Of a DNA stretch of 64,000 nucleotides, positions 23,057 to 59,760 are shown one piece after another. Under the pieces are notes generated by a model. The model worked only from the letters and a program-made list of their open reading frames with translations, did no database searches and had not been told where the DNA came from. Location: assembly GCF_018350175.1 (NCBI RefSeq), contig NC_058380.1, forward strand, positions 45,694,001 through 45,758,000. Direction: 5' to 3'. The position numbers were made by a program, and so were the translations under genes. Source of the stretch: Felis catus. Lineage: Eukaryota. Each line of letters starts with the position of its first letter. Position 1 is the stretch's first letter.

Positions 23057-23103
<47 letters not shown>

Positions 23104-24567: not shown

Positions 24568-24599
<32 letters not shown>

Positions 24600-36810: not shown

Positions 36811-38197
36811 TGATTTTTTTAATGTTTGCGTATTTAGTTATTTATATTTTTAATATGAAATTTATTGTCAAATTGGTTTCCATACAACACCCAGTGCTCA
36901 TCCCAATTGGTGCCCTCCTCGATACCCATCACCCACCCTTCCCTCCCTCCCACCCCCCATCAACCCACTGTTTATTCTCAGTTTTTAAGAGTCTCTTATG
37001 GTTTGCCTCTCTCCCTCTCTAACTTTTTTTTCCCCCTCCCCCTCCCCCATGGTCTTCTGTTAAGTTTCTCATGATCCACATAAGAGTGAAAACACATGAT
37101 ATCTGTCTTTCTCTGTATGACTTATTTCACTTAGCATAACACTCTCCAGTTCCATCCACGTTGCTACAAAAGGCTATATTTCATTCTTTCTCATTGCCAA
37201 GTAGTATTCCATTGTGTATATAAACCAAAACTTTATCCATTCATCAGTTGATGGACATTTAGGCTCTTTCCATAATCTGGCTATTGTTGAAAGTGCTGCT
37301 ATAAACATTGGGGTACAAGTGCCCCTACGCATCAGCACTCCTGTATCCCTTGGGNNNNNNNNNNNNNNNNNNNNNNNNNNNNNNNNNNNNNNNNNNNNNN
37401 NNNNNNNNNNNNNNNNNNNNNNNNNNNNNNNNNNNNNNNNNNNNNNNNNNNNNNNNNNNNNNNNNNNNNNNNNNNNNNNNNNNNNNNNNNNNNNNNNNNN
37501 NNNNNNNNNNNNNNNNNNNNNNNNNTTCATTTTAGCCACTCTGCTGGCGTGAGGTAATATCTCAGTGTGGTTTTGATTTGTATTTCCCTGATGAGGAGCG
37601 ACGCTGAGCATCTTTTCATGTGCCTGTTGGTCATCAGGATGTCTTCCTTAGAGAAGTGTCTATTCATGTTTCTGCCCATTTCTTCACTGGATTATTTGTT
37701 TTTTGGGTGTGGAGTTTGGTGAGTTCGTTATAGATTTTGGATACTAGCCCTTTGTCCGATATGTCATTTGCAAAAATCTTTTCCCATCCTTGGTTGCCTT
37801 TTAGTTTTGGTGATTGTTTCCTTTGCAGTGCTGAAGCTTTTTCTCTTCATGAGGTCCCAATAGTTCATTTTTTGCTTTTAATTCTCTTGCCTTTGGGGAT
37901 GTGTCAAGTAAGAAGTTGCTGTGGCTGAGGTCAGAGAGGTTTTTTCCCTGCTTTCTCCTCTAGGGTTTTGATAGTTTCCTGTCTCACATTCAGGTCCTTT
38001 ATCCATTTTGAGTTTATTTTTGTGAATGGTGTGAGAAAGTGGTCTAGTTTCAACCTTCTGCATGTTGCTGTCCAGTTCTCCCAGCACCATTTGTTAAAGA
38101 GACTGTCTTTTTTCCATCGGATATTCTTTCCTGCTTTGTCAAAGATTAGCTGGCCATACATTTGTGGGTCCAATTCTGGAGTCTCTATTCTATTCCA
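36811..38197 (-). mobile_element. 5'-truncated LINE-1 (ORF2 C-terminus + 3'UTR), antisense
   Basis: ORF2-like peptides [29 protein letters not shown] and CTPMFIAALSTIARLWKEPKCPS; approximate TSD GACCTAA(A)TTT at about 36801 and 38198; one N gap. Confidence 0.9.
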
Positions 38198-38429
38198 GAC
38201 CTAAATTTAATTTGTGACTTATAACTTATTTACTTATATAAATTTTATATAAAGTACATAAGTAAATTAAAATTTCTATAAAGACATAACTATTTCAATG
38301 TACTTAAATATTTAAAATCATTCCAAATTGCTAAAAGCAACAAAAAATTTTAATTATTCACTTAAATTATTCCCTGATTTATTTTCAGTGTACTGAATTT
38401 TAATGTTGCCTCATGACAAAATAATTTTT

Positions 38430-38620
38430 TTCAGTTTATTTATTTATTTGGGAGAGCACAAGCAGAAGAGGGGCAGAGAGAAGGAGAGACAGAATCCAAA
38501 GCAGGCTCCACACCATCAGCACAGAGCCCGACACGGGACTCAAACTCATAAACCGTGAGATCATTACCTAAGCCGAGATGAAGAGTCAGACGCTTAACGG
38601 ACTGAGCCACCCAGGCGCCC
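38430..38620 (-). mobile_element. CAN-SINE
   Basis: TSD TGACAAAATAATTTTT. Confidence 0.88.
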
Positions 38621-39275
38621 TGACAAAATAATTTTTAACTTAACCTGCTGCTAGATACTCTTGAAGGTATTGTCACAATATTTTTTCTGTTTCTCACTAG
38701 ATAATTGCTGATGTGTTGAATGAGTTTTGTAGAATTAAATCATAAAATATAATATATTTGTATTTAATTCCCAAAGCCCACATCACATCGAGGCTCAGAC
38801 AAAAGCAACATGCACAAGACAGCCAATAGCAGCTCACAAGTGAGCAAAAGCCACCTCTCCCAGAATGTCTTAGATCCAAGAAACAATGGAGAGAAACTCT
38901 TCCAATCACAGAGACGGGTTAGCCCCAGGTTTGTCACACTGATCTTGCAGATGTTTTGTGTATATTCCACAAATTCAATGTCCGTGCTTCTCGTATGATA
39001 CCCAAGAAAATCCAATGAGAGAAAATAAATATTAAGGAAGAATGTTTTGTTAGACTGGCCCAATGTTGAGCTTTGGAGTGCCACAGACCACTGCAATATT
39101 TCAGGCTGGTTCACAACCCTAGGAACTTACTGTTATACCCTTGGAAGCAATTGTAACAACTATTCCACCTGGTGTGGCAATGCTGATAATGGGGGAGACT
39201 ATTCACATACAGAACCGGGGAGTATGTGAAGCCTCGATATCTTGCACTCAATTTTGCTGTGAAGCTAACGGCTCT

Positions 39276-39460
39276 TGGGGGCTCAGTTGGTTGATCAACC
39301 GACTTTAGCTCAGGTCATGATCTCACGATTCATGAGTTCAAGCCCCACATCAGACTCTCTGCTGTCAGCACAGAGACTGCTTCAGATCCTCTGTCCCCAG
39401 TCTCTCTGCCCCTCCCTTATGTGCTCACTCTCTCTCTCTCAAAAAAAAAAAAAAAAAAAA
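39276..39460 (+). mobile_element. CAN-SINE
   Basis: GGCTCAGTTGG...GGTCATGATCTCACG...CT tract, A tail. Confidence 0.85.
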
Positions 39461-41159
39461 GAGAACACTTGTGTTTTTTCAAAACTATATCCAAGGTAAG
39501 GAAATTGGCTTGTTATGTTATTGGAGTCAGTTCTTTCCAGGAAAGAGTCATTTTTCTCTCTGTAGAAAAGACTCCTGCCTGGGAACAGACTTCTGTAGAC
39601 CACAAGCCAGGTCTCCAGATCCGGTCATTGTCTTTGTCCATCTTGGCCAGTAGGTGGCAATCTTCCTTTGTAAATATTTTAACAGACCCCTGACTAAAAT
39701 GATCCTGCTTTCTCTTTCCTTTTTCCCTACAGCTAGTTGCATCATTGTAGGAGGAACATTCCCTCATGGCCAAAAAAGGTCACGAGAAGAAAAAGAAGAG
39801 AACAAGAACTCTCCTATGAGAGTTTCCAAAAACCTAGAACTTTCACACCACTCTTGATTTCAGTTAGTGACTTTTGTACTTGGCCGGAAACCACAGCAGA
39901 AAAGGAAGCAGCTGTGTGAATGGGCAGGGCAGGTTCAGGAGGAGAGACTGAGGAGAGCAGAGCTCGCTGGGGGTTTCTACACTGGGGCAGAAGGAAACAC
40001 TGTGAGATGCACGTGAAGAATGAGATCTGGGGAAGCGGGAGGAAAGGGGAACGTGCTAGAGTCAGAATACATAGTGCACGTGTATATACACAGTATCTAT
40101 GTGTACATGGTATATTAGTATGTATATAATTACATTGATGAGCCACTTGTTCCCAATTCTGTTTTTTCAGACTCTCAGCATTTTGCAGTCAGTTACAGAG
40201 AGAGGGCTAGGAGAAGTTAATTATGCTCTTATAGACCTCTATGAATAAATAAGAACATGATGGTAAGCCTTCATTCAGTGGAAAATACTCCCTAAGCACT
40301 TCTAGATGTTCTAACGTGACCACCCCGCTAAGGGACACAGGAAAGTTAGAGGGGCTTGCAGTTTTGTCCTTCCTGTCCCCCGAGTGGAAGAGGAGAGAGG
40401 GCTGGACTTCCCTTCCCCCGGTGGGGGCGGGGGGAGGCTCTAGGAAAATCATTTCCCTGGAGAGCAGGCCTTTGCTGAGGGGAACAGAAGACTGAGAGGA
40501 TTCCCAGCCAGTGATTTCTCTTTCCTTTCCTCTTCTGGAAGCACCAGGAGTTTGTTTTCTCATCTTCACAGTGAGAACCTGGTGAAGGTTTCTCCCGAAG
40601 GTAACACTCACAAAAGCGTGTGGCCCCCAAAGACAGGATATCTTGCAGTTTTTCGATCTCAAGCTCGTCCATATGGACCTGCCAGTAATTCTTCCATTTC
40701 AGCTTCAGTGTTTCTACCAATACGAGCTTCAGCTGTGCTTTAAACTCTTGCATTTCTGCTCCCAGTCATCCAGGGTCTCTGTCTGCATCCCCCTCTTTCT
40801 GCAGAGCTAAGGGCGGCAGCTGGCACCTCGACCCCCAATTCATGATGGATCTAAGAAGAGTTGTTGCTTTTCAGTTTGTTTGGCACTTGTGTTATAGTTG
40901 ATGGAAGGTCAAGGCTGACGACCAGCTCAGCTGATTACATGTTGGGTGGGTACCAGAACGTCTGCCAATACATGAATACGTATGTCACATCGTTGGAGGT
41001 AAGTTTCTCCCAAGGAAAGAGGCCCGAGAGATAATCACTGAAGAAGAACATTGGAGCACACTTTTGAACAATTTAACTCGATACATTCTAAGACGAAAGC
41101 AGAAATAAAGTCAGTGAAATGACTAAATACCTGGGAATGTGACTTCATGTATTAAAGAT

Positions 41160-41710
41160 AATCATTTTGGGGTCTCTTTCCTTCCTCCTTACTAATTGTT
41201 ACGAATTTGAATATGCAGACAACGATCACGTGATTTGCACTCAGGCATCTTTCTAGAGGCACAATCACTCCATTGCTTCTCTTTAGACTGAGATGAAGTC
41301 TCCGGATGGAACTTTTGTCCTCTAGTGAAAGGTTCTTGCTGGAGTGTCCAGGTGTGTGCGTTTAAGGCAGGTGTCCTGGGTTCCGGCTGTCCCTGGAGCC
41401 CCATGCAGTTTGTCCAGCAGGATCGGGTTCCAGGCAGCAGATGGCAATTTGTGAGGAACTTTGAAGGTCTGCCGGAGCAGCTCCTGGGGACAGAGGTGGC
41501 CTGGGCCTCCTGCAACTGGCAGCCACCCACCCTCTCCCCGGGGGAGATGCCCCTCAGTCAAGAGAACTGAGACGTCCTCCTGATCTGTGTCAGAAGCAGT
41601 AGGTCTTCCTGCGAAGCCGCCCTTGGCCGGGAGGCAGGTCAGAGCCCAGAAAGGAGATGCGGCCACAGGGATCCAGCAGGAGGCCCGCCGAGGGGGTGCG
41701 CGCTGGGCAC
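41160..41710 (-). pseudogene. IFN-omega-like pseudogene
   Basis: Stitched frames: GLLLDPCGRISFLGSDLPPGQGRLRRKT/LLLTQIRRTSQFS*L...GGCQLQEAQATSV/QELLRQTFK...SAAWNPILLDKLH...KEKQWSDCA; ATG changed to GTG at 41708-41710; upstream TTTCATTTTCTGAA matches the omega promoters. Confidence 0.8.
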
Positions 41711-41795
41711 CTGAGGGGTCTGGTGGCCTGGGTGACGAGCGAGGGGGGCGTCTTGGGCCCTAGTTCCTCTCAAGTTCTTTCTCCGCATGTCTTTT

Positions 41796-42021
41796 TTTTT
41801 TTTTTTAATTTTTTTTTTCTCAACGTTTTTATTTATTTTTGGGAGAGAGACAGAGCATGAACGGGGGAGGGGCAGAGAGAGAGGGAGACACAGAATCGGA
41901 AACAGGCTCCAGGCTCCGAGCCATCAGCCCAGAGCCTGACGCGGGGCTCGAACTCATGGACCGCGAGATCGTGACCTGAGCTGAAGTCGGACGCTTAACC
42001 GACTGTGCCACCCAGGCGCCC
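41796..42021 (-). mobile_element. CAN-SINE inserted at the TATA box of the omega pseudogene
   Basis: TSD CTCCGCATGTCTTTT at 41781-41795 and 42022-42036. Confidence 0.92.
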
Positions 42022-44471
42022 CTCCGCATGTCTTTTAATACAAAACCGTTTTCATTTTCTGAATGTTCCTGTACACGTTTTATTCTTCTTAAGTTTTGTT
42101 CCTTTCTTTATGTAAGCCTTAGATTAGAGTAGATTAGATCGGAAAACATTAACCCTATGAATTACTCATTTCACTATTTCAGTGAAGTTTAATTTGCCGC
42201 AGTACTTCAAATGTTCCAGCGTAAAGGGATCCAAAGCTTTCAAACGACGGAAATCTTTTGTGTTACGATCAAAAGTAGGTAGCTGTTGTTCTCCTTGCTC
42301 AGGACATACTTTTACCTCCGAGCCTGAGCTCTGTTGTTGTGATTTTTATTTTTTGCGCATCAGTCAAGACGCCTGGTCCCTTTGGGTCAGCGTGCCCATA
42401 GCCCTGTGTGTGACACCTGGCTCCCCTCGCTCACTCTCTCTTTCTCTGTAACTGGCCGCCAGGAGTCAGCTCATCAAACTTCCAGCTTTGAGCAAAATTT
42501 TATTGGAGGGTGGCTGCTTTGTCCCCCAAATAATCAACTGTCCGCGACCCAGGCTTGTTTCTGTGACCAATTCCTTCTCTTTCTGTCAGGTGCTCAAGAG
42601 TCAGATTTTTCCACAGCTTCCAGAAGACACAAACGTTCTGCACTTCATGTGTGTAGGGGGCACTGGTGTGGGTAAAGTATCCTTTTTTTTTTTTTTTGTA
42701 ACCTTAAGTAGCAACAGGAATTTTATTTTGCTAAATGTTGATTTCTATGTGGAGTTCAGTTTATTAACCTGTGGAGTCCTTCTCATGCTCTCAGTTTCTG
42801 AGGCCGCAAGGGACTCAGTGTTGATTTTCCTGTTGCTGGAGGCTTGCACTGAAGTAACTGATAAGGCTTCCTGGGTTAGTGAGTCAGTTCTTTTCTCCTG
42901 AGCTATTTGGTTCATCGTGATCCATCTCACAGCCAAGATGTGGGGCAGGGAGGCCACATACTAGAGAAAACTAACCCCTTTCTTTACTAGCTTGGAGTTT
43001 TTTTAATTGTATATGTTCTTTTTAATTTAGTAATTTTATAGGCACGGGTGGACTTCTCTTCTGAATTCCTTTCTACTTCATCTTGAGGTCAGTACCAAAA
43101 GAGGGAAGCAAGAATGAAAACGGGAAGGGCCCCTACCATTATTTCCCATCAGTTTTGATATAGCATCTTTTTCTTTCTCCACTCAGCTTTCCTAGAAAGC
43201 TGTCACGGCATTGGGATGCACCGAGGCACCAGGAAATCAAAGGCAAATCTGACCGTGAAGGCCATGGAAACACTAGGGTGGCTCCCAGGTGAGGGGAAGC
43301 CAGCGGGAGCCCTTGGCTTCTGCTACCACCTTCCACCTGCTCACTGTGGTGCCTGCTTGCGAATTCCACCCAGCCCTCGCTAAGGTCAGTTCCATCTGCT
43401 TCCCCACATACTGGATGGTTTCCGTCCACAGAACAGCTTCCTGACCTTCCGCATAGTACGCATCAAAATGATAATAGATTATCATGGTAAGGAATGAAAG
43501 GTGCCATGCTTTAAAATAAACACAACATTAAGCATATGAACAGGATTTGCCAATACATCCAATCCATGTATCTATCCAGAGACACACATAGCGCAAAACG
43601 GAGAACTCTGCAGGAGAAAAAAAAAAAACTTCACGTAATTCCCAATTCCCATTCTATTCTCCTGTTGCATTTCAGCAGGCACATCTCTCACAACTATTTG
43701 CTCCTTATACCTGAACTTCTCTTCTCTTATTCACTCATTGCCTCCCACCCTCCAATATGGTTTCTGTGAGTTCTTCCAAACCAGCTCTCACCAAAGCTTC
43801 AATGCCCCCTTCATCCCAGTGCGGCGGGCACTTTACATCCACATTTTACAATGATGCAATTCTTTGAAGCCATTTCAGTCCTTGAAATCGACATTTACCG
43901 ATATTCTCTCTTACCCTACTACCTCGTGGCCATTCTGTCTCTGTTTCTGTTGTGGCTCTTTTCTCCCTTTACCATCTGAAGTTTCGAGGAATCGATCTGA
44001 AGTTCTTTGCTCATGCTCTCCTCTTCCCGTGTGACCGCTTCTGTTTTAAGGCTTCCAGTTAATGGAGTTGCTTGTAAATTGCAGACTCAAATATCCATTT
44101 TCCAAAGAATATTCGCACTTGGAAGTCCACCAGTCAATTATAGGAGATATCTACAGCTTTTGTTTCTGTTTCCTGGCATGCTTTCCTGCAGATTCTGCTG
44201 AGAGAACTCCATTTTTCCCCTTCTCCTCATTATACCGTTTAATATAACTGATATAAATTCAGTGTGATTATTGTCTTTAGGTTGCTTTCTCCACAAAACT
44301 CACTGGTGCAAAAGCAGAACTGGATTTGTTATGTCCACCCCTATCCTGTCAGCCGCATACAGACTGGCTTAGAGAAAGTCTATTTTTAATGTATAACGTG
44401 AATAACTAATGAGTAAGTGAATTGCACAATCTATTCTTTCATCAGAGTTGTTTCTTTTTTAATAATAAACA

Positions 44472-44690
44472 GGGGCGCCTGGGTGTCTCAGTCGGTTGAG
44501 GGGCCGACTTCGGCTCAGGTCACGATCTCGCGGTCCGTGAGTTCGAGCCCCGCGTCGGGCTCTGTGCTGACAGCTCAGAGCCTGGAGCCTGTTTCGGATT
44601 CTGTGTCTCCCTCTCTCTGACCCTCCCCCATTTCATGCTCTGTCTCTCTCTGCCTCAAAAATAAATAAACGTTAAAAAAAATAATAAAGA
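44472..44690 (+). mobile_element. CAN-SINE
   Basis: Typical body in the 3' flank of the third IFNA. Confidence 0.9.
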
Positions 44691-45058
44691 AGACAAGAAT
44701 TTTTCTATAGAAAATATTTAATAAAGAAAAGAATAAATTGAATAAATATAAAGAATATATTTTTTCTCTTAACCACAAAGTGAAAGTACACTTAATATTA
44801 TTCAAATGTAATTTAAATCTTATAAATAGTTAAGTAAATAAATTGTTAAATAGATACATAAATAGATCAGCAAGGTCATCGGAAAGTGACTAGTGCTTGT
44901 AGAGTTGACATGATGTACTTAATACTCCTGAAAATATTGACAGATTGATGCCATTCATGTCACAGCAGAATGGAGAAATGAGAGTCTTTGACATGGCAGG
45001 ACACGTGGATAGTGTGATACGATTAGTCAGCGAGAATCATTTCCATGTTGAACAGGTC

Positions 45059-45640
45059 TCATTTCTCGCTCCTTAATCTTTTCTGCAAGGCTGTTGACGA
45101 ATACAAGGATCTCATGATTTCTGCTCTGACAATCTCCCAGGCACAAGGGCTGTATTTCTTCTCTTGCAGGTAGAGGGAGAGTCTTTGGAAGTAGTTCCTC
45201 AGGATGGAGTCCTCGGGATGAATGTCCTCGTTCGTAAGGGGAGCCTCTCCCTCCCCCACCTCCTGCAGGACACAGGCTTCCAGGCGGGTCAGCTGCCGAT
45301 CAAGTCCCGTGCAGAATTCCTCCAGGAGGGTGGTGTTCCAAGCAGCAGACGAGGACGCCTCTGTGCAGAAGAAGTGGAAGATCTTCTGGTTCGTCACGTG
45401 CACCACCGAGAGGGCTTGGGCCTTGTGGGACTGGTCTCCACCGAACACGTCCTGGGGGAAGGCGAAGTCATTCCTGTCCTTCTGACAGGAGCTGGCAGGG
45501 AGTCTCCTCATTTGTCCCAGGAGCGTCAAGGCCCTCCTGTTCAGCAGGCCGTGGGTCTGAGGCAGGTCACAGCCCAGAGAGCAGACGGAGTTGCAGCCCA
45601 GCGCCACCAGGGCCACCAAGAAGGAAGAGGGCAGCGCCAT
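45059..45640 (-). CDS. IFNA: Interferon alpha (felid), 193 aa, IHPED-insertion type
   Basis: ATG at 45640 (MALPSSF...) matches the paralogous starts; the ORF-track start at 45751 is upstream of the TATA position. Confidence 0.95.
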
Positions 45641-45734
45641 TGGGGATCTTGCAGATGCTGTTGGCCTGGCTGGGGTGGGCGACTCTGTGACCCGTGGCTC
45701 CAGGTTCTCTGAACATCTTCCCTTGTGCGCACCT

Positions 45735-45825
45735 CCTAAATGGGAACACATTAGTTTCCATTTTCTGAATCTCCTCTTCTTCCTACTTTTGTTTTCTGGT
45801 TTTCATTTTGCATTCTCCAAATGGG
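45735..45825 (-). promoter_or_regulatory. IFNA promoter with degenerate TATA
   Basis: CATTTAG at the TATA position; GAAAATGGAAA at 45755-45765; AAAATGAAAACCAGAAAACAAAAGT upstream. Confidence 0.65.
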
Positions 45826-46870
45826 TTTAGAGCAGTGCTTCTCAACCGTTTTATTTAATTATTGCCCCCTTCCCCTGACCCCTGAGCCCTTTTAGATTGT
45901 TTTTGCTAATTGAACCCCTCATGAAATTTTAATGACACAGTTATACTCTATATCTATTTATGTACTCTCTCTCTATCTATCCTTTATACATAGAAAAAGA
46001 GAGTGCCAAACTTCTTTTTTTATCCAAGGCAGGATTAAAATTGATAAAAATTTTAAGCTAAAAGTAAATTTAAAGTTATTAACATTTTATTTATCTCTAT
46101 AGCTAAGTTTGCAGAGCAAATTTTAACATATTTACGTGTATAAATAGTAATGTATTAAGTTACATATTCAAATTAATAATTATACAAACAATAATAATAT
46201 ACATGTAATGATATACTTAAAACGATTTTAAGAACTTCTAAAAACAATTGAAAAATTACAGTATTGTCTTAACATGTATTTTTAGGTCTTAACTTTTAAT
46301 TTTGCTTCATATCAAAAAACAATTTTTAATTTCACTAGCAGCTAGATATTCATCAAGATATTCTCAACATCGATTTCTTTTCAGCAATTGATATAATTAT
46401 AAATGAGTTGAATAACTTTAGTAGAATTAAATGATCAAATAGAAACTACTCGCATTTAGTTTTAGAGCCCAGTTCACGCTAAGGCTCCAACGTAAGCACC
46501 GTGGCGTCTTCTAAGTAAGGGAAGCCCACCTCTCACAACACAGCTTTGAAATCTAGCAAATGATGGAGGGAGAGTCCTCTGGTGATCCATCTACTGGATG
46601 TAAGTTTTATTGCTCTTAACATGCATACATTTTGTATAACGTCCATGAACTCAACATCAATACTTCGCATAAGATACCCAAGAAACACCGAGAAGATACA
46701 AGGTGATGAGATCATAAATCCTAAGGAATAAGATTTGGTTGAATAGGGTTGATTTGAAGAGCAACGAACCATTGTAATACATAAGATTTGTTCACTCTCC
46801 AAGAGCTAATTTTTGCACCGTTGGTAATGATATGGCCTACGAAAATAGGCAAGTAAGAAAACGTATTCGC

Positions 46871-47075
46871 AGGCGCCTGGGTGGCTCAGTTGGTTAAGCG
46901 TCTGACTCTTGGTTTCAGCGCAGGTCATGATCTCACATTTTGTGAGTTTGAGCCCCTCATCGGGCTCTGCGCTGACAGTGCAGAGCCTGCTTGGGACTCT
47001 CTCTTTCTCCCTGTCTCTCTATTCCTCCCCGCTTGTGCTCCCTCTCTCTCTCAAAAGAGATAACCTTAAAAAACA
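46871..47075 (+). mobile_element. CAN-SINE
   Basis: GGCGCCTGGGTGGCTCAGTTGGTTAAGCG head. Confidence 0.85.
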
Positions 47076-47164
47076 TATATATTCAATTTGAATTTTCTTT
47101 TATATTTGCATTTAATTTCAAATTTCCCAGAGGACTTTCAGAAGTCCCAAACCAGATCTATTCA

Positions 47165-47200
<36 letters not shown>

Positions 47201-48199
47201 GTTGTTTGTCCTAAATTCAGAAGTGTGTAAATATTGATTATTACCATGTGAAGAACTTTCTCTGAGCTCCCATCCTTAACTCTTTGGATTCTGCATAGGA
47301 AGTTACCCGGCCTAAGCCCTCCATAGACCAACTCTTTAAATGGAAGCTGTGTACCCATCTTGGACACACCAGCTCTTAGTCACGGACTCTGTTACATTCA
47401 TTCTGTTGTTCTCAGCACCGGGCCCTGAATACTGGCTCAGTAAGTCACTTTTACTGCAGGCGTCTCACTGATTTTCTCCTCCTACCAGAAGGCATTCGTG
47501 AATGACCATGCTAGTTTGCTTCATCAGGGCCATAGGTGCTGAGCAAGACTGTAGAGACAATGGCTGAAATTTCTGCTCTAGTCTCCTGCTACCCACGTGG
47601 CCTACTGAGATTATTGCTGAAGCCACTGGGATTTTATTTGCTTTCCTGCACACAGGGCTCTGGGATTCAGGCTGCCAAAACAGCACTATTTTCAGCCTTT
47701 GCCCAGCACGAGGAAGAACCCCCAGGTGTGGCCTCATCTCAAATCGCCCTTCAACGTGGTCATCACAGAAAACTAACCAGCCTGGTGTCCCACACAGCAC
47801 AACACATCGAAACTCCAACTCTCCTGGATTCCCAGAGCTCAAAGCCACCAGACCGTTGATCCCCGGACTTGGTGGTGGGTCTTTACCGAAGCACCAACGA
47901 TCGAGCCTTCACCCTGAGCGTCTCTGGAGACAACTCAAAAAGAAAACATGAACCATTAGCTGCATGCTCCTATCTCCATCTATTTCTGTGGGAGAGTAGG
48001 CTCCGTTTCAGTTTGATATGTAGAATTCGGGATGGTGGGGGTGGTTAATAATCAGAGCTTCCCTTCCCGTCAGAAAACAAGGCTTTGGATTCCTAATTCT
48101 TGGCGCCCTGTCCTTGCCTGCCAACCTGCCTCCTCACTCTTGTCACTCGGCACGGCTGTGTTCTCTCTTCTAAATGGCGGGCATGGAGCCTTTAAGGAG

Positions 48200-48690
48200 C
48201 CGCTATGGTCAGACTGTTTGGATGTTATCTGTTGAAGTCCTAACTCCAAAGTGATGGTATTAGGTGGTGGGGCCTTTGGAAGGTAGTGCGAGAACAAGAG
48301 TATAGCCCTCATGATGGAATTGGGGCCTTTATAAGAGACCCTCTACTCTTGGATTTCCAGCCTGTAGAACTGTGACCAGTAAATTACTGCTTTTTAAAAA
48401 ATTTTTTTTAATATTTGTATTTTGAGAGAGAAAGAGACACAGACAGGGGTGAGTGGGAGAGAGACTGAGAGAGAGGGAGACACAGAATCTGAAGCAGGCT
48501 CCAGGCTCTGAGCTGTCAGCGCAGAGCCCGACGCGGGACTCGAACTCACAAACCACGAGATCATGACCTGAGCCAAAGTCGGACGCCCAACTGGCTCAGC
48601 CACCCAAGCGCCCCAATAAATTACTGCTTTTTACAAGCTACCCAGGGTATGCTCTTTTTTTAAGGCAGCCCAAACAGATTGAGCCCTGAC
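48200..48690 (+). mobile_element. MLT1-like LTR remnant interrupted by a SINE
   Basis: TGTTGAAGTCCTAACTCCAAAGTGATGGTATTAGGTGGTGGGGCCTTTGG...CTTGGATTTCCAGCCTGTAGAACTGTGA...AGCAGCCC-like end. Confidence 0.6.
48396..48615 (-). mobile_element. CAN-SINE
   Basis: TSD TAAATTACTGCTTTTT. Confidence 0.9.
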
Positions 48691-49569
48691 CTGCTCTGTT
48701 TTCTCCTTAGAATACCTCCCTCCAGGGGTCTGGAAAATACTTAAGGGGAGAGACATCATCTTAGCCGGCTGTTTTTCTAGGCACCCAGTCTGGCCCACAT
48801 CATTTCCAGAGCACAATCAATATTCATGAGGAAAACAAGCATGGTAATTAAAGGAGAAAGAATACTACCAACAGAGGCTACAGAGATATGAATCATGTGA
48901 TTTGCAAGGACAATAGATCTGAAGATCCTATATGAATTCCTCACGGTCCTACAGGGAACTTATAATGGAATAGCCTGTGAAGCATTTAANNNNNNNNNNN
49001 NNNNNNNNNNNNNNNNNNNNNNNNNNNNNNNNNNNNNNNNNNNNNNNNNNNNNNNNNNNNNNNNNNNNNNNNNNNNNNNNNNNNNNNNNNNNNNNNNNNN
49101 NNNNNNNNNNNNNNNNNNNNNNNNNNNNNNNNNNNNNNNNNNNGAAATTTCCTTCAAGTTTGTATTTTCAGTATTTAGAATATTAAGACGAGAATCATGG
49201 GCCTGGTCATCAATGGAAGACTCACTCTCCTCTTTTATTTCAGGGAGCCTCAAGTACCTGCAAGGAGCTACCTCATCATACCTTGCTCACCTCCCTCACA
49301 TAATGATAACTGAATGTTACAAAGTGTTCCAAGACCTCATCTCCACCCTTATGGCCACTTTCCAACATCGGCCTCTGGCAATCGATTGCAATGCTTCTTT
49401 CAGTGGATCAATGATGCTGTCAAGTCTAAAGAGTGACATCCATTGGACTGAATCTCCCCCCGCTTTAAACTGTGGAGTCAGACTTTGGGTCAGTCGTTTT
49501 GAGCTTTTCAAGAAAAGGTGTGCTGCCAACATATTGGCTATTGTTCCCCTTGAGAAAAGCATCAGTACA

Positions 49570-49778
49570 GGGGTGCCTTAGTGGCTCAGTCGGTTAAGCG
49601 GCTGACTTTGGCTCAGGGCATGATCTCGCAGTCCGTGAGTTCGAGCCCCGCATCAGGCTCTGTGCTGACAGCTCGGAGCCTGGAGCCTGTTTTAGATTCT
49701 GTGTCTCCTTGTCTCTGACCCTCCCCCATTCATGCTCTGTCTCTCTCTGTCTCAAAAATAAGTAAATGTAAAGAAAAA
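49570..49778 (+). mobile_element. CAN-SINE
   Basis: TSD AAAAGCATCAGTACA. Confidence 0.9.
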
Positions 49779-50422
49779 AAAAGCATCAGTACAAATAATG
49801 TAACAGTGAAAACTCACTTTCACTGAACTCCTCTCTTCCACAGTCACCAGAGTAGAGTCTGTTTCCCAGTGGACGCACTTGATATTGACACTTAGGCAGC
49901 CCGTGAGAATACATTCGGACCAGACAAATGGTGGTGTAAGTGATACTGTCCTGTGGGGTCTAGCCTTGACCCTTGAAAACCTCCCATGTGATCTTCCATA
50001 TTGTTTCCCTTTACAACTAACTGGAATAGACTCAAGCATCCCACACCCATTTGGAGTCCTGTGCTGAATATGGTCAAGTCACAGAATGGAAGGGCCTCGT
50101 GTCCTTGAGTCACTGTTTGAAGATGAGCCAACCAGAAGAGACATCTGAGCTGGAACTCCTGCACGGTTCTTTTCTAGTTTTCTATAGATCTGGTACAACA
50201 GCTGGCATTCACTTACTGACAAATGTCTTTCAGAAAATACTATCCCCAAACACCTCTCCACTTAAAATTTGGACTTTACATTTTGGAAATCACAAATACG
50301 CCCCAAACCTTGAACAGATTTTAAAATTACATCACAAGATCATTTACTTATGGAAATAGATCACGTTCTTCTCCTAAACATGTCTTCTATACTTTTTTTT
50401 TTTTTTTTAAGTTCATGATTTT

Positions 50423-50636
50423 GGAGACCCTAGGTGGCTCAGTGGATGAAGCCTCCCACTCTTGGTCTCAGCTCAGGTCATGGTATCAGACTTGACTTCC
50501 AGGTCCCCCTCTGGCTCCGTGTGGGCAGGGCAGAGCTTACCTGAGATTCTCTCTCTCTCCTATTCTCTATGCCCCTCCCCTGCTCCCGCTGTCTCTGTCT
50601 CTCTCAAAATAAATAAATAAACTTAATTTTTTTTTA
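50423..50636 (+). mobile_element. CAN-SINE (older), abutting the 3' end of the delta-like pseudogene
   Basis: Diverged head GGTGGCTCAGTGGATGAAGC; approximate TSD AAGTTCAyGrTTTTGG. Confidence 0.8.
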
Positions 50637-50650
50637 AGTTCACGGTTTTG

Positions 50651-51131
50651 GTTTCAGATATTTCTCACCTGCTACCCAGGTAGAGCGACTGTGTGTCTTT
50701 TCCTTCATATACAGATGGATGCTTTAGAAATACTTCTAGGCCACAATTCCCAAACACGGGCTGGATTGTCTTCTTCCGGGGGCTCCAGGTGTTCCAGGCT
50801 GCGATCCAGGTTAGACAGGAGGGTAAGGAGGTAGGCGTCGCCCCTAGCAGCGCGGCTGTTGTCTGTGCTGAAGAGGCTGAGATCTGCTGGAGCATCTGAT
50901 GGTGGAAACAGGTGGTTTGTGCCTCCTGCACTTGGGCGATATAGCCTCTTTCCCAAGGAAGTCTGAATCAGGAGGTTCTGTCATTCAGGCATGTGTGAGA
51001 GGGGCTCCTTTTCAACTGTCTCAAAAGTAGGAGGATGTCCCTGTTTCTTGGGCTCTGGAGCCAAGGCAGGTCTCCAGCAAGGGAGCAGGCAGGGATGCTG
51101 CAGAGCAAGGCCAACCACAGATCTGGGCCAT
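50651..51131 (-). pseudogene. IFN-delta-like pseudogene
   Basis: ATG at 51131: MAQI/(frameshift)LALLCSIPACSLAGDLPWLQSPRNRDILLLLRQLKRSPSHTCLNDRTS*FRLPWERGYIAQVQEAQTTCFHHQMLQQI/SLFST...LLSNLDRSLEHLE/PCLGIVA*KYF*SIHLYMKEKTHSRSTW. MAQI, FPW, CFxxQMLQQI and the shortened CD region are delta-type features. Confidence 0.82.
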
Positions 51132-51139
51132 TGACGATT

Positions 51140-51640
51140 TCGGTCGTTCTCCAGGCGTCCGGCAGGTGGCGCGCGGCCGTCCTTTTCGGAAGTGGCTTTA
51201 GGGCAAAGAAGCTGTGACTTTGAAACAGAAAGGGGAGCGTCGGGGCAGCTTCTGGGCAGCTTCGGGCGACTCCAGGCTGAGCCCTTCCAAGAGCGCCAGG
51301 GCAAAGCGAGGGCTGAGGCGCTCTGGGCGCCAACTGTGTGCTGCTTTTATAGTCCCCGCAAAGCCCTGCTTCTCCCCGCCCTTAGCGCCTGGCGGGCACC
51401 TCCTCTGTGCTTCCTCCGCCAGGAACATCCTCCACGGGGAGGGAGGCGTGGACCTTGAGTTTTCTGGGCTCCCTGTGTCCCGAACTCTCCTTTTGCGCCG
51501 AGAGTGCAGCCGGGCCATTTTTTCCAACAATCGTTTCCTAAACGAACTGGAGGCTCCGAACCCACGTGAGCGCGTTGAATCGCCCTGTCAGCCTAGGGTG
51601 GCATGTGAGCCTGAGGCCGCGGCCGAGACCGGCTGGGACA
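51140..51640 (-). promoter_or_regulatory. CpG-rich promoter-like region upstream of IFN-delta-like pseudogene
   Basis: TATAAAA (minus) at 51345-51351; GGGCGGGG GC box at 51374-51381; CGGAAGTG ETS-like at 51187-51194; many CpGs. Confidence 0.55.
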
Positions 51641-51711
51641 GGATTGGGGGGTAAGAGGGAACGGAGGACAGGGCCCGAAGGCAGGAAGATGGGAGGGTGG
51701 GAGGAGGGGGC

Positions 51712-53293
51712 AATGGAGCGATGGGATGAACGGACAGTGGGACGTTAGCGCGATGGGACGACGGGGTGATCAGGCGTCGGAATCAAGGGACGACGGGACT
51801 GTGGGACGATGGGACGATGGGACGATGGGGCGATGGGCGATGGGACGATGGGACGATGGAGCGATGGAGCGGTGGGACGATGAGGCGATGGGGCGATGGG
51901 ACGATGGGACGTTGGGGCGATGGGGCGTTGGGAGGATGGGACGATGGGACGATGGGGCTATGGGGCGATGGAGCGATGGAGCGGTGGGATGATGGGACGA
52001 TGGGGCAATGGGCGATGGGCGATGGGGCTTTGGACGATGGGACGATGGAGCGATGGGGCGATGCGACGATGGGACAATGGGCGATGGGGCGGCGGTACGG
52101 TGGGGCGATGCGACGATGGGGCGATGGGGCGTTGGGACGATGGGCGATGGGACGATGGGACGGGGGGACGGTGGGGCGATGGGGCGATGGGACCATGAGA
52201 TTATGGGACGATGGGGCAATGGAACGCTCCTGGACCAAAGCGCTGATACAGTACTGGGAGCCAGTCGCGTGCCGCCAGCATCTGGATGCTGTCTGTGAGG
52301 AAGTCGGGCGCCCAGTAGCGTTCTGCTGACTTGTAGCAACAGTGGCCAGCGTCGGAATCAAGGGACGACGGGACTGTGGGACGATGGGACGATGGGACGA
52401 TGGGGCAATGGGGCGTTGGGACGATGGGACGATGGGCCGAAGGGACGATGGGCGATGGGGCGATGGGGCGATCGGAAGATGGGACGATGGGACGATGGGG
52501 CGATGTGACGATGGGACAATGGGCAATGGGGCGGTGGGGCGGTGGGACGATGGGATGATGGGACGATGGGACGATGGGCGATGGGGCGATGGGACTGTGG
52601 GGCGATGGGACGATGGGGCGATGGGGCGATGGGGCGGTGGGACGATGGGGCGATGGGGCGATGGGACGATGGGCGATGGGGCGGTGGGAAGATGGGACGA
52701 TGGGTGATGGGGCGATGGGACTGTGGGGCGATGGGACGATGGGGCGATGGGACGATGGGCGATGGGGCGGTGGGAAGATGGGACGATGGGTGATGGGGCG
52801 ATGGGACTGTGGGGCGATGGGACGATGGGGTGATGGGGCGATGGGACGATGGGGCGATGGGGCGATGGGACGCGCCTGGACCAAAGCACGGATACAGTTG
52901 TGGGACCCAGTGGCGCGCCGTCAGCACCGGATGCTCTCTGTGAGGAAGTTGGGCGCCCAGTAGTGTTCTGCTGACTTCTAGCAACATTGGGCAGCGTAGG
53001 AATCAAGGGACGATGGGACTGTGGTAGGATGGGACGATGGGGCGATGGGGCGATGGGAGGATGGGCGATGGGGCGATGGGACGATGGGACTATGGGACTA
53101 TGGGGAGATGGGACTATGGGGCGATGGGGCGATGGGGCGATGGGACGATGGGACGATGGGGCGATGGGACACTCCTGGACCAAAGCGCTGATACAGTCCT
53201 GGGAGCCAGTCGCGTGCCGCCAGCATCTGGATGCTCTCTGTGAGGAAGTCGGGCGCCCAGTAGCGTTCTGCTGACTTCTAGCAACATTGGCCA
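51712..53293. repeat. Compound G-rich tandem repeat: (GGGACGAT/GGGGCGAT)n arrays within three higher-order units
   Basis: Units start GCGTCGGAATCAAGGGA (or variant) at 51774, 52349 and 52994; each ends in a roughly 120-bp non-repetitive block starting CCTGGACCAAAGC at 52229, 52875 and 53174. Confidence 0.92.
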
Positions 53294-55479
53294 CCTGAAA
53301 GTCGGTGCGCAGGCGTGAACAGATTGCACTTTACAAAGGAGGAATGAGAATCTCGCACAGCACTGTCGTCAACTGGGTCACCATGACGTATTTCATAGTA
53401 AATATTACATTAAAATATTAGACATAAGATATTAAACATTCTCATATTAAGATATTCAACCGCTATTTTTGTTAACTTTTTGCAGTGGGATTGAATGCAC
53501 ACAATTGAATATAACTTTACTCTTCCACCATTGATGGAAACAAACTCAATAATATAGTGGAGATTACTTCTTCTTTTCAGTTGGTAGAACTGTACGTTTG
53601 ACAATTTCTTGTGTCTCCCTGACAAACTTCATGTCATTTTTATTTAACTCCTGGTTAATGAAACATCTCTCCCCGTATTCCAACTTGACTCTATGGTTAA
53701 AGAGGAAGGGTGGTGTTGTGCACAAGCATTCAGCACATTTAGCAGGTGAGATCTTTGTATTTTCTTTGGCAAGAAATTCCTAGACTGAATGGAATTTGCC
53801 AAAATTTCATATGCACTGTGGCTCCTTTGAAGACTCAGGAACTTGAACGTGCAAGGTCAATTCTCCTCTGTACTTAACATGTTGATATTTTGTACCTCAT
53901 GGATGTTTTGCGTTAGCTTACATTTTAAAGTATTGCATTAAGGTATTTATCTTGATTACTTAGATTTGGTGCCTCTTTAAATTTAGTACTTGAAGGAAGT
54001 ACTCACCTGCTTTACCCAAATACTGACCCAAGAAATAGCTTTTGAATTAGGGCTGTGAATTTCAATGGCTGAAAATCTAGGAATGTCCCATTTCTCATCA
54101 CTCTCTCCTTCATAATTTTTAAAACTGGTTTCCTCGTTTCTACAAATTTTGTCTTCTCCACTGTGCCTTCAAAACTATCACCGGAAGTGGTCTGAAGGTG
54201 AGTGAGCCTGAGGGAAGGAGCTCTGACCACTTTATACTATTCACAGAGCAGCCATTTCTGTCAGACAACTTTCAAGAGGCTGGTTCCCCGCAAAGACCTT
54301 CTTTGCGCTGTGAGATCTCTCTCCTTTATGTTCCAGGTACTGACCCCAGAGGGGAAACTTGGGCTCTGCTCCTTCACGGTCCTGCAGACACTGCCCTCTC
54401 CAGGAGTGTCCAGGGTGGGGGGAGGGGCCCCATGCACACCCCTGAGGGTGTTAAGGGAGCTTCACTGAAAGCTTGAGCTGGTTTGGCTGAGTGTGGACTC
54501 TACCCAGCATTGGATGTCCTACTAGCCCTGCAGGCAGCGACCATTTACTGCGGTCAGGTGGACTCTCATCTGTGATCAGCCTAAAATTTGCAAACTTTAT
54601 CTCATTTAGTCTTTACACTTTCCTGTGTGACCACTACTAATGTTGTCTCCACTTCTTTTTGAGGAGGAGATCAAAATCCGGTGTCATTATCCTCCGGAGC
54701 CACAGGTGTCTTCAAAAGTGGGGCTTTCTGCCGCCCTCCAGTCCGTCCTCTTCCTCAGCTCTTAGTACGTGCCCTTAGCTGCACTGACTGTGCTGGTGCC
54801 TCATTAATCTGAACCATGTCTTTAATGTCTGCCTTCCTTGTTCCCTGGAGGGCAGTCACCATCCCTGTCTTGTCTTCTGTGAGTCCACATGGCCACACAC
54901 TGCCTTCCACGTGTTGTGCAGGCGGTACCTTCTGGGGGACAGGATGCAGAGAACTCTGTGAGTTAACCCTTGAAGTTCACCTTTATGCCTCTATTATCTT
55001 CAGACTGTGTCAGAATATATGAGCCATGTCTCCTGTAAAGAGATAGGGGAGAATTCAAACTTAATGGAGAGCCCCTTACAAGGGAAATGCAGAGGGTTGG
55101 GGCAAGTTGTCTTCGAGTGCATTGGGAGAAGTGGAAGAATGGTACCTGGATCAAACCACTGAGCGTTCTTTTTAGAATTGAAAAACAGACATGGACGGAG
55201 AGTCGGGTTTTTACTTCAACCTGGGGTCTCATTTAGGTGAACGTATCCTATTGGACTGAGATTTCTAGGATTTCCATGAGTGTGTTTGATCTGCAGCGTC
55301 ACAATACAAAGGAAGTGTTGAGGTCGTGACGTGGTCTGAAGCCCCGACAAAAAGTGGAAAGAAGATCGGGATAAGAACCGAGGCGGCAGTCCCGGCCTAA
55401 TGAAGAACCTCGTGTGCAAGGTGCTCAGAGCAGCTGGGTAAAGTCTCCCCCGGGTGGACTTGCGCGTCATCACGCCCGC

Positions 55480-56024
55480 CTGGGGCCTGCCAGCCTCTTC
55501 ATGATGACACTGGAGACGATGCTCTCCAGCTCTGTCAGCACCCTCCGCGGCGACCTGGCCCAGAACCGTGGCCTGCCCACGCTGGAGACCGTCACAGTTC
55601 TGCAGTATGTGGGGAGGATCGTCCTTGCTGTCGTGCCTGGAGGACCGAGAACATTTTCAGGTTTCCCCAGAAGCAGGTGCGTGGCAGCCGGTTCCAAAGA
55701 GCGCAGGCCACCTCTGTCTTCAGGAGATGATGATCCAACTTCACGACGATCCAGCACGAACCGCTGAAAGTGCTCACTGGACTCGATGAGAACGTGGACG
55801 ACCCGGTGACCAGTTCGGTGCAGGAGACGGGGAAGGAAAAGACCCTCCCGAGCAACGAGGACGCCAGCCTGCCTGTGGGGAGCTAGTTGCAAAGAATCAG
55901 TCTTCTCTGGCAAGAAAGTACATAGCTGCCCTGCCCGGGACGTTGTCAGACTGGAAATTCAGAAGCGGAAATCAAGAAGTGCTTTCTCTGTATTAAGAAG
56001 CTCATCAGAAAAGCCGGGAAGTTG
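55480..56024 (+). pseudogene. Inverted type I IFN pseudogene, IFN-alpha-omega/mu-like
   Basis: Plus-strand stitched frames: FMMTLETMLSSSVSTLRGDLAQNRGLPTLETVTVLQYVGRI/SLLSCLEDREH/FRFPQKQVRGSRFQRAQATSV/LQEMM...LTGLDENVDDPVTSSVQETGKEKTLPSNEDASLPVGS*LQRISL...DVVRLEI/EIKKCFLCIKKLIRK. Upstream 55351-55440 resembles IFN promoter/5'UTR (AAAGTGGAAAG; AAGGTGCTCAGAG). Confidence 0.75.
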
Positions 56025-56062
56025 GAGAGGAGACTCGGACTCAACCTTCCACAACTGAGCTT

Positions 56063-56460
56063 GGGAGTAAAGATGGCAGACGGTGACCTTAGCTTGTCTA
56101 CTCCCTCAAACACAGCTAGATAGTTATTACATCATTCTGAACACCAAAGAAATCAACCGGAGGTCTGAATGACAAAAACTGCAAGATTCCATATAGAAAA
56201 GGGACCACCTTTTGGAAGGCAGGAGGGGAGGAGGCTTTACTGGGAGAGCTATTGCCCTGGGCCTGGCCGGTGGGGAGGGAGCTGGCTTAAGGAGGCTTTC
56301 GCCAAGTAGTATAAGCAAAATCCGACCTTGTAGCAGTCCACTACCTTGGGGGAAGAACATGGCTTACAGGTACTCAAGCGGTGAATAGGGGCAGAATCCC
56401 AGGAGTGACAGCATGGTCTCAGGATCCCTTGCTTCGCAGAAAACGGGGTCTCGCCAAGCA
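56063..56460 (+). mobile_element. Carnivore L1 5'UTR fragment
   Basis: GGGAGTAAAGATGGCAG...CAAACACAGCTAGATAG...ATCATTCTGAACACCAAAGAAATCAACC resembles the 5' end of carnivore L1, as does the 20004 element. Confidence 0.55.
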
Positions 56461-57097
56461 TCCACAATTGAGTCTCATCAACGCCTAAGTGGCTTCCACT
56501 TGTGAATAGTCACCCAATTCAAAGATGTGTTTTCTTTCTTCAGCTGTAAACTGTGTTCAGTCATTTTTGACAGTTTCATTTTTTCAATAATACGGGGACT
56601 CTACTTTGGAATGGATAGACACTACATTTTTACATGTTTAAGAATTATAATTTATGCATTTATGCACAGCAAGTGTTGTATTTACAAAATGTACTTGTCA
56701 TATTATTGTATGACCGGTTTTGTCTTCTGTGTTCATTTGCTTCAGGGATATGAAATCTAGCTTCAACGTTCCGTCTTACTCATAATGAGATCCAAGTGTG
56801 CTTAAGTGCTTAAGGTGTCTTTAAATCCAAAGGGAACATAAACAGTTTGACTCATTTCATGGACTCATAAAGAAATATTTTGAAGTATCTCAGTAATTCA
56901 CTTGTGTTGGTGAATGTGTTGGGAAATAAAACAAAAATATTATTTTCTTTAGTGAAACACTGTGGCGGAGAAGGCTAACCATAAGGAGTAAGTAATTACG
57001 TAGGAATCCTTTCTACAATGATGAAGGAGGTGCAGTGGACACTCTGACAGATTATAGCAGCTGGAGCTGGTCCACTGGACTTAAAAGTTTCTTGGAG

Positions 57098-57315
57098 TGG
57101 GGCGCCTGGGTGGCGCAGTCGGTTAAGCGTCCGACTTCAGCCAGGTCACGATCTCGCGGTCCGGGAGTTCGAGCCCCGCGTCGGGCTCTGGGCTGATGGC
57201 TCAGAGCCTGGAGCCTGTTTCCGATTCTGTGTCTCCCTCTCTCTCTGCCCCTCCCCCGTTCATGCTCTGTCTCTCTCTGTCCCCAAAATAAATAAACGTT
57301 GAAAAAAAAATTTTT
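57098..57315 (+). mobile_element. CAN-SINE (young felid type)
   Basis: TSD AAGTTTCTTGGAG at 57085-57097 and 57316-57328; empty site at about 28127-28139. Confidence 0.92.
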
Positions 57316-58584: not shown

Positions 58585-58671
58585 CCCGACTCTGGGCTCA
58601 AACTCATGAACTGTGAGATCACGACCCAAGTGAAAGTTGGGCACCCAACTGACTGAATCACCCAGGCACCC
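58585..58671 (-). mobile_element. CAN-SINE head fragment
   Basis: Paralog of 29395-29482. Confidence 0.7.
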
Positions 58672-59076
58672 TGGACTTAGGTTTTAAGAATAAAGAGACT
58701 CAACAAGTTGTCTTTGATAAGAATTTATTAAGACAAAATGCATAGTTAATAAAATGAAAAGGTGAATACGTTTTATAAATTTTAACACAATGTAAAGACA
58801 AAAACCTTTATAGGGAAATATAAATATAAATTAGTCACAAGAATGAATAAATAAATAAATAATAAACAATAAATAACATCAGGGCAATCATCTCTTAAGG
58901 ACTGATGATCCTGAAGCCGGATTTTTTTTTTAAACATATTCTTGCTTAATACTACTCATAAAATATTTGTGGAATTAAAGCCAATAAATTCTGTAATGAA
59001 GGCTGCAGTGAGAGTCTCTTGAGGTGAGCAGACATAGTGCAGGGGTGATGTGGCACGTCAGGCAGTGAGAATCACT

Positions 59077-59667: not shown

Positions 59668-59760
59668 GGGGAAGCCGAGGGGGCTGTGGCCGGGCTGAAC
59701 TGGGCGGCTGGCTGGGGGACCTCAGGGCCGAGGTTCTCTGAGGACCAACTCGAAGCATGG

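What the first reader, a model, noticed from the sequence alone, without database searches (positions are those of the whole stretch)
55350..56024. Cryptic inverted IFN pseudogene of an alpha-omega/mu-like subtype
Seen: a frameshifted type I IFN reading on the plus strand, opposite to the nine other IFN genes and pseudogenes here, with its own IFN-like promoter/5'UTR remnant and a 14-bp tandem duplication (GGAAATTCAGAAGC/GGAAATCAAGAAGT) near the end. The motifs ETVTVL, ISLLSCL and the EIKKCFLCIKKLIRK ending match neither the alpha (EIMRSL) nor the omega (EIMRAL) copies here. Inference from memory: they resemble IFN-alpha-omega/IFN-mu of pig, horse and cattle. It is still CpG-rich, and annotation pipelines would easily miss it.
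Basis: partly seen in the sequence, partly recalled or inferred. Interest (0 to 1): 0.7.

Follow-up and report, generated by a model that had tools for sequence, protein, structure and literature searches.

The report
Dead interferon of an unnamed lineage
This is a broken cat-family interferon gene, present twice in mirror-image copies; it is probably not the alpha-omega type first proposed, and it likely descends from a little-studied interferon lineage whose genes are still intact in armadillos, pangolins, rhinos and bats.

Summary
Window 55480-56021 (+) is a heavily broken type I interferon remnant (Pfam E 1.9e-4), opposite to nine other IFN loci in the window, with a 14-bp duplication. The subtype call does not hold. 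The cat's intact alpha-omega/mu gene lies 17 kb upstream of the window. The remnant lacks the alpha-omega N-terminal deletion (27 residues vs 22-25 in 15 of 15) and sides with alpha-omega at 1 of 16 diagnostic sites. Its best protein matches are short-tailed 'omega-like' interferons annotated in eight mammalian orders (profile 123.7 vs 105.7 bits). Its 5' flank matches a second cat pseudogene of that class (z 11). Whether it is a member of that class or a separate extinct sister lineage is unresolved. It has a 98% twin across KLHL9 in an inverted repeat that is likely old and homogenised by gene conversion. No function is indicated; RNA was not testable. The scan had no note on this gene; one note concerns a repeat beside the twin. 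The interest lies in the apparently unnamed interferon lineage; three key papers could not be read.

The parts
55211..55379 (+). 5' flank homologous to the flank of the cat class pseudogene at G000:C31:45682663
   Evidence: 105/161 identical, score 163, z 11.4, best of 500 dinucleotide shuffles 104; alpha-omega flank z 0.6
55350..55453 (+). Degenerate promoter and 5'UTR words (IRF-like at 55350, TATA-like at 55396); motif labels recalled
   Evidence: positions; promoter profile hit 55399-55453 only E 0.072
55480..55548 (+). Signal-peptide remnant; start-codon position reads CTG
   Evidence: gap-free DNA alignment to four cat IFN genes
55549..55654 (+). Helix A / AB-loop remnant: Cys1 position reads Gly, Cys29 kept (55634), two +1 frameshifts (about 55621 and 55646-55655), no alpha-omega-type deletion
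55656..55763 (+). Helix B remnant followed by a rearranged stretch, net about 33 nt lost, in-frame TGA TGA at 55728
55764..55952 (+). Helix C-D remnant: Cys99 position reads Ser (55812), TAG at 55884, -2 shift near 55905-55920, Cys139 position reads Pro, conserved Trp reads Arg
55953..55980 (+). 14-bp tandem duplication (frameshift), copies 11/14 alike
55968..56021 (+). Short ancestral-type C-terminal tail; ancestral stop lost
   Evidence: 71% of 17 residues to giant pangolin class member, 41% cat alpha-omega, 12% cat alpha and omega; stop position
56055..56461 (.). Old interspersed-repeat insertion, about 400 bp, absent from the twin (L1 5'UTR-like, label recalled)
   Evidence: 39 other genome matches at 70-78%, only 40 of 570 candidates scored; flanking 6-mer repeat
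56462..56860 (+). 3' flank remnant, only 62% alike to the twin's 3' flank
37526..56059 (.). Core of the left arm of an inverted repeat centred on a KLHL9-like gene; right arm G000:C31:45788892-45808482 holds the twin
   Evidence: 94.7-98.2% in blocks of 0.5-7 kb; BTB-BACK-Kelch ORF, 617 aa, at C31:45774869-45776722

Best explanation
It is a non-coding, broken type I interferon gene copy that likely descends from a short-tailed 'omega-like' eutherian interferon lineage rather than from alpha-omega/mu, and it is likely kept 98% identical to a mirror-image twin by gene conversion between the arms of an old inverted repeat around KLHL9. Shown: the lesions, the twin, the arm structure and the ranking of matches. 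Inferred: (1) the ancestor was a normal secreted IFNAR ligand, by family membership; (2) it died long ago, probably before felids radiated; (3) it stopped exchanging its middle with omega genes, so it keeps older states there, whereas living class members have an omega-converted middle; (4) conversion copies all lesions between the two arms and may bias it towards GC and CpG.
For: Frameshift-aware scores: the top 7 of 133 proteins are class members (158-196) vs best alpha-omega 147, best alpha 149, cat alpha-omega 119; pangolin members score 161-189. Class profile 123.7 bits vs alpha-omega 105.7, omega 94.9, alpha 89.8, delta 40.7. Neutral-decay codon model: class ahead of alpha-omega by 20.3 log units; 0 of 225 simulated alpha-omega copies exceeded -19.8. 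The 5' flank matches only the cat class pseudogene among 16 loci (z 7.7; next 2.6). Class members are 87-96% alike to same-species omega in the middle but 38-58% at the N-terminus, in 5 of 5 pairs. Conversion: arms 95-98% in the core, 77-88% outside, 62% just past an old insertion found in one copy only. An independent DNA run shows both 3' ends. Palindromic IFN sets are known in cattle (PMC2680415 section 12) and conversion in human IFNA (PMC3244034 passages).
Against: At class-diagnostic sites it is 2 for, 2 against, 5 ties. A pooled four-class profile fits as well (+1.6, about the 95th percentile for simulated true members) and a class+alpha-omega mixture fits better (+4.0). Its class-minus-alpha-omega score (20.3) lies below the 5% quantile of simulated members (24.8). 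No tree places it inside the class; it is basal or unresolved in 4 of 4 trees. The middle is best fitted by alpha and whole-length DNA by cat alpha-omega. N-terminal DNA identity to the cat class pseudogene (61%) is no higher than to cat alpha (63%) or alpha-omega (64%). The class was defined after seeing the scores. The GC bias is only a trend (27/110 vs 17/115, p 0.09).
Confidence: 0.52

Rival explanations
1. It is the relic of a separate, extinct interferon subtype that branched near the root of the alpha/omega/alpha-omega/class radiation. It resembles the class only because both kept ancestral states. It may be the positional orthologue of human IFNA11P.
For: Basal in 4 of 4 trees. Few derived states of any group: alpha-omega 1/16, omega 0/10, alpha 3/15, class 2/9; the pooled profile fits equally. 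The middle keeps states seen in marsupial IFNs. Right-arm order twin, delta-psi, alpha, omega-psi, alpha, omega, epsilon matches the human order from IFNA11P to IFNE as I recall it; not tested.
Against: Specific 5' flank homology to the class pseudogene and best N-terminal and tail fits to the class. Long pseudogene branches are pulled to the base under protein models. Nesting with the pangolin/rhino class members is not rejected (p 0.13-0.44).
Confidence: 0.33
2. It is a decayed paralogue of IFN-alpha-omega/mu/chi.
For: Best whole-length cat DNA match is alpha-omega (65.5%); middle DNA best to alpha-omega; a sister position to all alpha-omega is not rejected.
Against: No alpha-omega deletion (27 residues vs 22-25 in 15 of 15); 1 of 16 diagnostic sites; nesting with carnivore alpha-omega rejected; 0 of 225 simulations reach its score; no 5' flank homology (z 0.6).
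Confidence: 0.08
3. The CpG-rich remnant is kept for a function: a regulatory CpG patch, a non-coding RNA, or the 88-codon ATG frame at 55501-55767.
For: CpG o/e 0.63-0.83 over 55100-56000; the 88-codon frame exists; contigs from RNA libraries cover it.
Against: The frame leaves IFN homology after about 40 codons. Converted multi-copy cat IFN genes are also CpG-rich (0.46-0.67) while single-copy alpha-omega is not (0.24). Contigs from RNA libraries cannot exclude DNA.
Confidence: 0.05
4. It is a recent, degraded copy of a felid IFNA or IFNW gene, or an assembly artefact.
For: Middle region fits alpha best; grouping with all alpha is not rejected on the full alignment (p 0.215).
Against: Grouping with cat alpha or omega rejected; tail 12% alike to both; independent runs carry the same indels and both copies.
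Confidence: 0.02

Closest known systems
Short-tailed 'interferon omega-1-like' proteins (armadillo XP_058157316.1, named Interferon 1BH1-8 in a third-party annotation; anteater, sloth, treeshrew, rhinos, pangolins, Pteropus, Rousettus, Rhinolophus, camelids, dugong low-quality model)
   Same: Signal-peptide and helix A pattern, 27-residue Cys1-Cys29 spacing, short ancestral tail; 48% to giant pangolin, mean 40.5% to 12 members; 5' flank shared with the cat pseudogene of this class.
   Different: Broken; middle not omega-converted; class-diagnostic sites split 2/2/5; not nested in trees.
IFN-alpha-omega / mu / chi (pig NP_001159792.1; bovine IFNX groups with it, PMC7662560 passage)
   Same: SxLSCLxDR motif, short tail, mean 36.6% to 15 members; best cat DNA match.
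   Different: Lacks the N-terminal deletion and nearly all derived residues; the cat's true orthologue is a separate intact gene (72% to pig).
IFN-omega and IFN-alpha
   Same: 27-residue spacing; some alpha-like states in the middle.
   Different: Lacks the derived EIMRS-type tail and omega/alpha N-terminal characters; AU tests reject omega.
Palindromic IFN gene sets and gene conversion (cattle, PMC2680415; human IFNA, PMC3244034; antiparallel duplicates near KLHL9 in Krause and Pestka 2015, recalled, not read)
   Same: Mirror-image IFN sets with near-identical members near KLHL9.
   Different: Here about 19 kb arms carry pseudogenes along and show a 98% to 62% step at an old insertion.

Membership tests
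Type I interferon (PF00143) descent | Sequence homology over signal peptide to helix E, intronless | tested here: met
Functional type I interferon | Open frame with start codon and the Cys1-99 and Cys29-139 pairs | tested here: not met
   start lost, at least four frameshifts, stops, 3 of 4 Cys positions changed
Functional type I interferon | Virus-inducible transcript | tested here: inconclusive
   0 reads in two raw runs read at about 1 in 100, which is no test
IFN-alpha-omega/mu/chi | Short Cys1-Cys29 spacing (22-25 in 15 of 15; feature derived from my alignment) | tested here: not met
   27 residues
IFN-alpha-omega/mu/chi | Group-diagnostic residues | tested here: not met
   1 own, 9 other, 6 ties
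IFN-alpha-omega/mu/chi | Nesting in the alpha-omega clade | tested here: not met
   outside the crown at 99/94 and 100/99 support on full alignments; cat+wolf nesting p 0.007/0.019; laurasiatherian nesting p 0.134/0.024; sister position not rejected
Short-tailed omega-like class | Best profile fit at the N-terminus and tail | tested here: met
Short-tailed omega-like class | 5' flank homology | tested here: met
   z 11.4 to the cat class pseudogene; one comparator only
Short-tailed omega-like class | Class-diagnostic residues and nesting in the clade | tested here: inconclusive
   2/2/5; neither recovered nor rejected
Short-tailed omega-like class | Middle converted by same-species omega | tested here: not met
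   28% to cat omega vs 87-96% in five class members
IFN-omega / felid IFN-alpha | Derived tail and tree grouping | tested here: not met
IFN-delta, nu, beta, epsilon, kappa | Best alignment score | tested here: not met
   max 65-68 vs 191; the delta set is unnamed and labelled by recalled motifs
Orthologue of human IFNA11P | Synteny and DNA orthology | not testable with these tools
   human order recalled only; search found 1 paper that merely lists the name

The most novel reading that the evidence does not exclude
Databases hide a distinct, pan-eutherian type I interferon subtype under 'omega-like' labels. It has its own signal peptide, helix A and short tail, and a middle repeatedly overwritten by omega. 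It is annotated as protein-coding in eight orders and dead in cats. The pseudogene here is either its second cat relic or the fossil of one more extinct subtype, possibly shared with human IFNA11P, carried for tens of millions of years in a KLHL9-centred palindrome.
Probability: 0.35. Interest if true: 0.62.

Novelty: new variant of a known kind. Interest (0 to 1): 0.42.

Why it matters
The pseudogene itself most likely does nothing. It matters as a fossil. It points to an interferon lineage that counts of 'IFN-omega' in bats, xenarthrans, pangolins and rhinos seem to lump with true omega, although its N-terminal helix and tail differ (38-58% and 18-53% alike to same-species omega). Its receptor affinity and induction could be tested directly. 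It also shows that gene conversion in the IFN palindrome can preserve and CpG-enrich dead genes, so high identity or CpG content is no sign of youth or function.

Tried and rejected
A homologue search with the read-through frame found nothing (7 candidates, none at E<=10). Pairwise promoter alignments to six cat IFN loci were within shuffles. One search used a wrong anchor for the class pseudogene; its rows for that locus are void and were redone. A strong far-flank match between alpha-omega and the pseudogene at C31:45830k (z 48) looked like a positive control but is a shared repeat (146 hits in 384 kb): rejected. 3' flank comparisons did not discriminate (AT-rich; z 0.3-5.4). I first guessed that the pseudogene at window 51 kb was of the class; it is delta-like (329 vs 168). 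RNA: no test; low-share runs added nothing on expression. No fold or complex prediction was run, since the gene is broken. Krause and Pestka 2015 and Detournay 2013 are not held; Premzl's interferon paper did not appear in search.

Full report
Setting. The window is G000:C31:45694001-45758000, part of a felid type I interferon cluster; a neighbouring gene is 96-98% identical to jaguarundi, jaguar and lynx proteins. I fetched 120 kb upstream and 200 kb downstream. In these 384 kb there are 13 intact IFN frames: nu, beta, one alpha-omega, five alpha, four omega, epsilon (the alpha-omega label rests, the others on my recognition of the sequences). About a dozen remnants lie among them.

The observation. 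Window 55480-56021 (+) aligns to type I IFN from the signal peptide to the tail. One read-through frame hits PF00143 at E 1.9e-4. The X-broken read-through scores 107.6 bits against a 66-sequence profile; the best of 200 shuffles scores 1.3. Lesions: start position CTG; Cys1 to Gly; two +1 shifts; about 33 nt lost with in-frame TGA TGA; Cys99 to Ser; TAG at 55884; a -2 shift; Cys139 to Pro; Trp to Arg; a 14-bp duplication (copies 11/14 alike); stop lost. None of the six laid runs that covered it showed an indel against the assembly. Nine other IFN loci in the window are on the minus strand, as stated. The promoter words are weak alone (E 0.07).

Not alpha-omega. The cat has an intact alpha-omega gene at C31:45677329-45677880, 72% to pig IFN-alphaomega; cat IFN-chi/alpha-omega frames are already reported (PMC7662560, passages). 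All 15 of 15 alpha-omega proteins have 22-25 residues between Cys1 and Cys29; the remnant has 27, like omega (15 of 15), alpha (9 of 10) and the class below (11 of 12). At 16 alpha-omega-diagnostic sites it is closer to alpha-omega at 1, to others at 9, tied at 6. Trees (44 and 29 of 68 aligned rows; near-duplicates, fragments and distant outgroups dropped) leave it outside the alpha-omega crown on the full alignments (99/94, 100/99). They reject nesting with cat+wolf alpha-omega (p 0.007, 0.019) but not a position as sister to the whole group (p 0.41, 0.29). The tail that suggested alpha-omega is ancestral: marsupial IFNs, nu and kappa have it too.

Closest relatives. I scored 424 proteins with a frameshift-aware aligner (133, 88 and 203). 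The top ranks go to a set labelled 'omega-1-like' or 'Interferon 1BH': anteater, sloth, armadillo, treeshrew, rhinos, pangolins, fruit bats, horseshoe bats, camelids and a low-quality dugong model, scores up to 198 vs 147 (best alpha-omega) and 149 (best alpha). The 10 members used form one side of a branch in the N-terminal tree (87/90). They are mosaics: 75-79% alike across orders at the N-terminus, but 87-96% alike to same-species omega in the middle in 5 of 5 pairs. The cat has a second, better preserved pseudogene of this class at C31:45682663 (+), 96% converted by cat omega in its middle; a tiger gene model shows the same reading at the frameshift (P0302). The remnant's 5' flank aligns to that pseudogene's flank and to none of 15 other loci (z 7.7, next 2.6; 11.4 in a 500-shuffle test). 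A neutral-decay codon model puts the class first overall (alpha-omega -20.3, omega -34.8, alpha -38.3) and at both ends, with alpha first in the middle by 1.8; leave-one-out simulations classed 180/180 class and 225/225 alpha-omega copies correctly.

What remains open. The fit is weaker than for a typical member: below the 5% quantile of simulated members, 2 for, 2 against and 5 ties at class-diagnostic sites, and matched by a pooled profile (+1.6). Four of four trees place it basal or unresolved. I defined the class after seeing the scores, and the break points were guided by the same alignments. So 'member whose middle escaped omega conversion' (0.52) and 'separate extinct sister lineage' (0.33) cannot be separated without orthologous DNA. 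From memory, the human order IFNA11P, IFNA12P (delta-related), IFNA8, IFNWP2, IFNA1, IFNWP19, IFNE mirrors the cat right arm, which would make the twin the counterpart of IFNA11P. This is recalled and untested; the one paper found only lists the name.

Orientation and CpG. A 98% twin lies at C31:45788892-45789750 on the minus strand; the 11 substitutions between the copies within the coding remnant repair none of the lesions. Both sit in the arms of an inverted repeat around a 617-aa BTB-Kelch gene, taken as KLHL9 from its position. Each copy is head-to-head with a delta-like pseudogene, so the orientation relative to neighbours predates or accompanies the repeat. Arm identity is 95-98% over about 19 kb, 77-88% further out, and 62% just beyond a 400-bp repeat insertion present only in the window copy, whose relatives are 70-78% alike. 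An old insertion beside a 98% tract is best read as gene conversion in an old palindrome; a recent duplication breaking exactly there is less likely but not excluded. One DNA run splits into both 3' ends (depths 32.5 and 24.7 from 53.7), so the twin is real. CpG o/e 0.70 resembles converted multi-copy genes (0.46-0.67), not single-copy alpha-omega (0.24). AT-to-GC changes exceed the reverse (27/110 vs 17/115, p 0.09), unlike a pseudogene outside the arms (6/78 vs 23/79): a trend that fits GC-biased conversion but does not show it.

Literature. Ten searches found no paper naming this class or this pseudogene. PMC6603160 (section 16, passages, one supplement search) says omega orthologues split into two subclusters, which may be this division; its table gives the cat 6 alpha, 1 beta, 1 epsilon, 1 kappa, 5 omega. 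PMC2680415 (passages, section 12) describes palindromic IFN sets in cattle. PMC13176653 (passages, section 9) excludes pseudogenes. I saw passages only of PMC4221479, PMC6631851, PMC13085271, PMC13441703, PMC3244034, PMC7662560 and PMC10223187. Krause and Pestka 2015 and Detournay 2013 are not held and Premzl's interferon paper was not found; any of them, or figures and supplements I did not see, may already name the class.

Verdict. Interest 0.42, carried by the apparently unnamed lineage it points to.

Noticed in passing
G000:C31:45682663-45683230 (+), 11 kb upstream of the window: Well preserved pseudogene of the short-tailed omega-like class, broken by small frameshifts, middle 96% converted by cat omega, head-to-head with alpha-omega.
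   Followed up: yes
G000:C31:45677329-45677880 (-): Intact cat alpha-omega/mu/chi gene; relatives are labelled 'alpha-2-like' and occur in carnivores, bats, xenarthrans, afrotherians, treeshrew and a rodent, wider than 'pigs, horses, ruminants' in PMC6631851.
   Followed up: partly
window 50650-51135 (-) and G000:C31:45794816-45795270 (+); window about 4300-4900 (-): Delta-like IFN pseudogenes (score 329 to a delta-type protein for the 51 kb copy); the cat is listed with no delta gene in the PMC6603160 table.
   Followed up: partly
G000:C31:45772770-45773110 (-): Old IFN remnant next to KLHL9, sister to alpha-omega in one tree (96/80) and 67-68% alike to the candidate's middle; possibly another old lineage.
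   Followed up: partly
G000:C31:45757900-45758370 (-), 45777750 (+), 45820150 (+), 45829650-45830215 (-): Four further faint IFN remnants; the one at 45777k scores best to the class (99), the one at 45830k to alpha-omega or class (161/156).
   Followed up: partly
window 51700-53300 and 18400-18900; G000:C31:45791800-45794200: GC-rich 8-base minisatellite upstream of the candidate and of its twin, giving long spurious open frames; an earlier scan note (e1-9117670) covers the twin-side array.
   Followed up: no
window 19039-31660 vs 53226-60842: Older direct duplicate of the flank-to-IFNW block (73-97%) that lacks the candidate gene and is interrupted by an L1.
   Followed up: no
G000:C17:121230600-121230767 (+) and C31:73132105-73132290 (-): Two Pfam Interferon hits outside the cluster with internal stops; fetched but not analysed.
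   Followed up: no
P0033 (wolverine) and P0284: Database proteins that look like alpha/alpha-omega and alpha/nu chimeras; they may be gene-model joins or real conversions.
   Followed up: no
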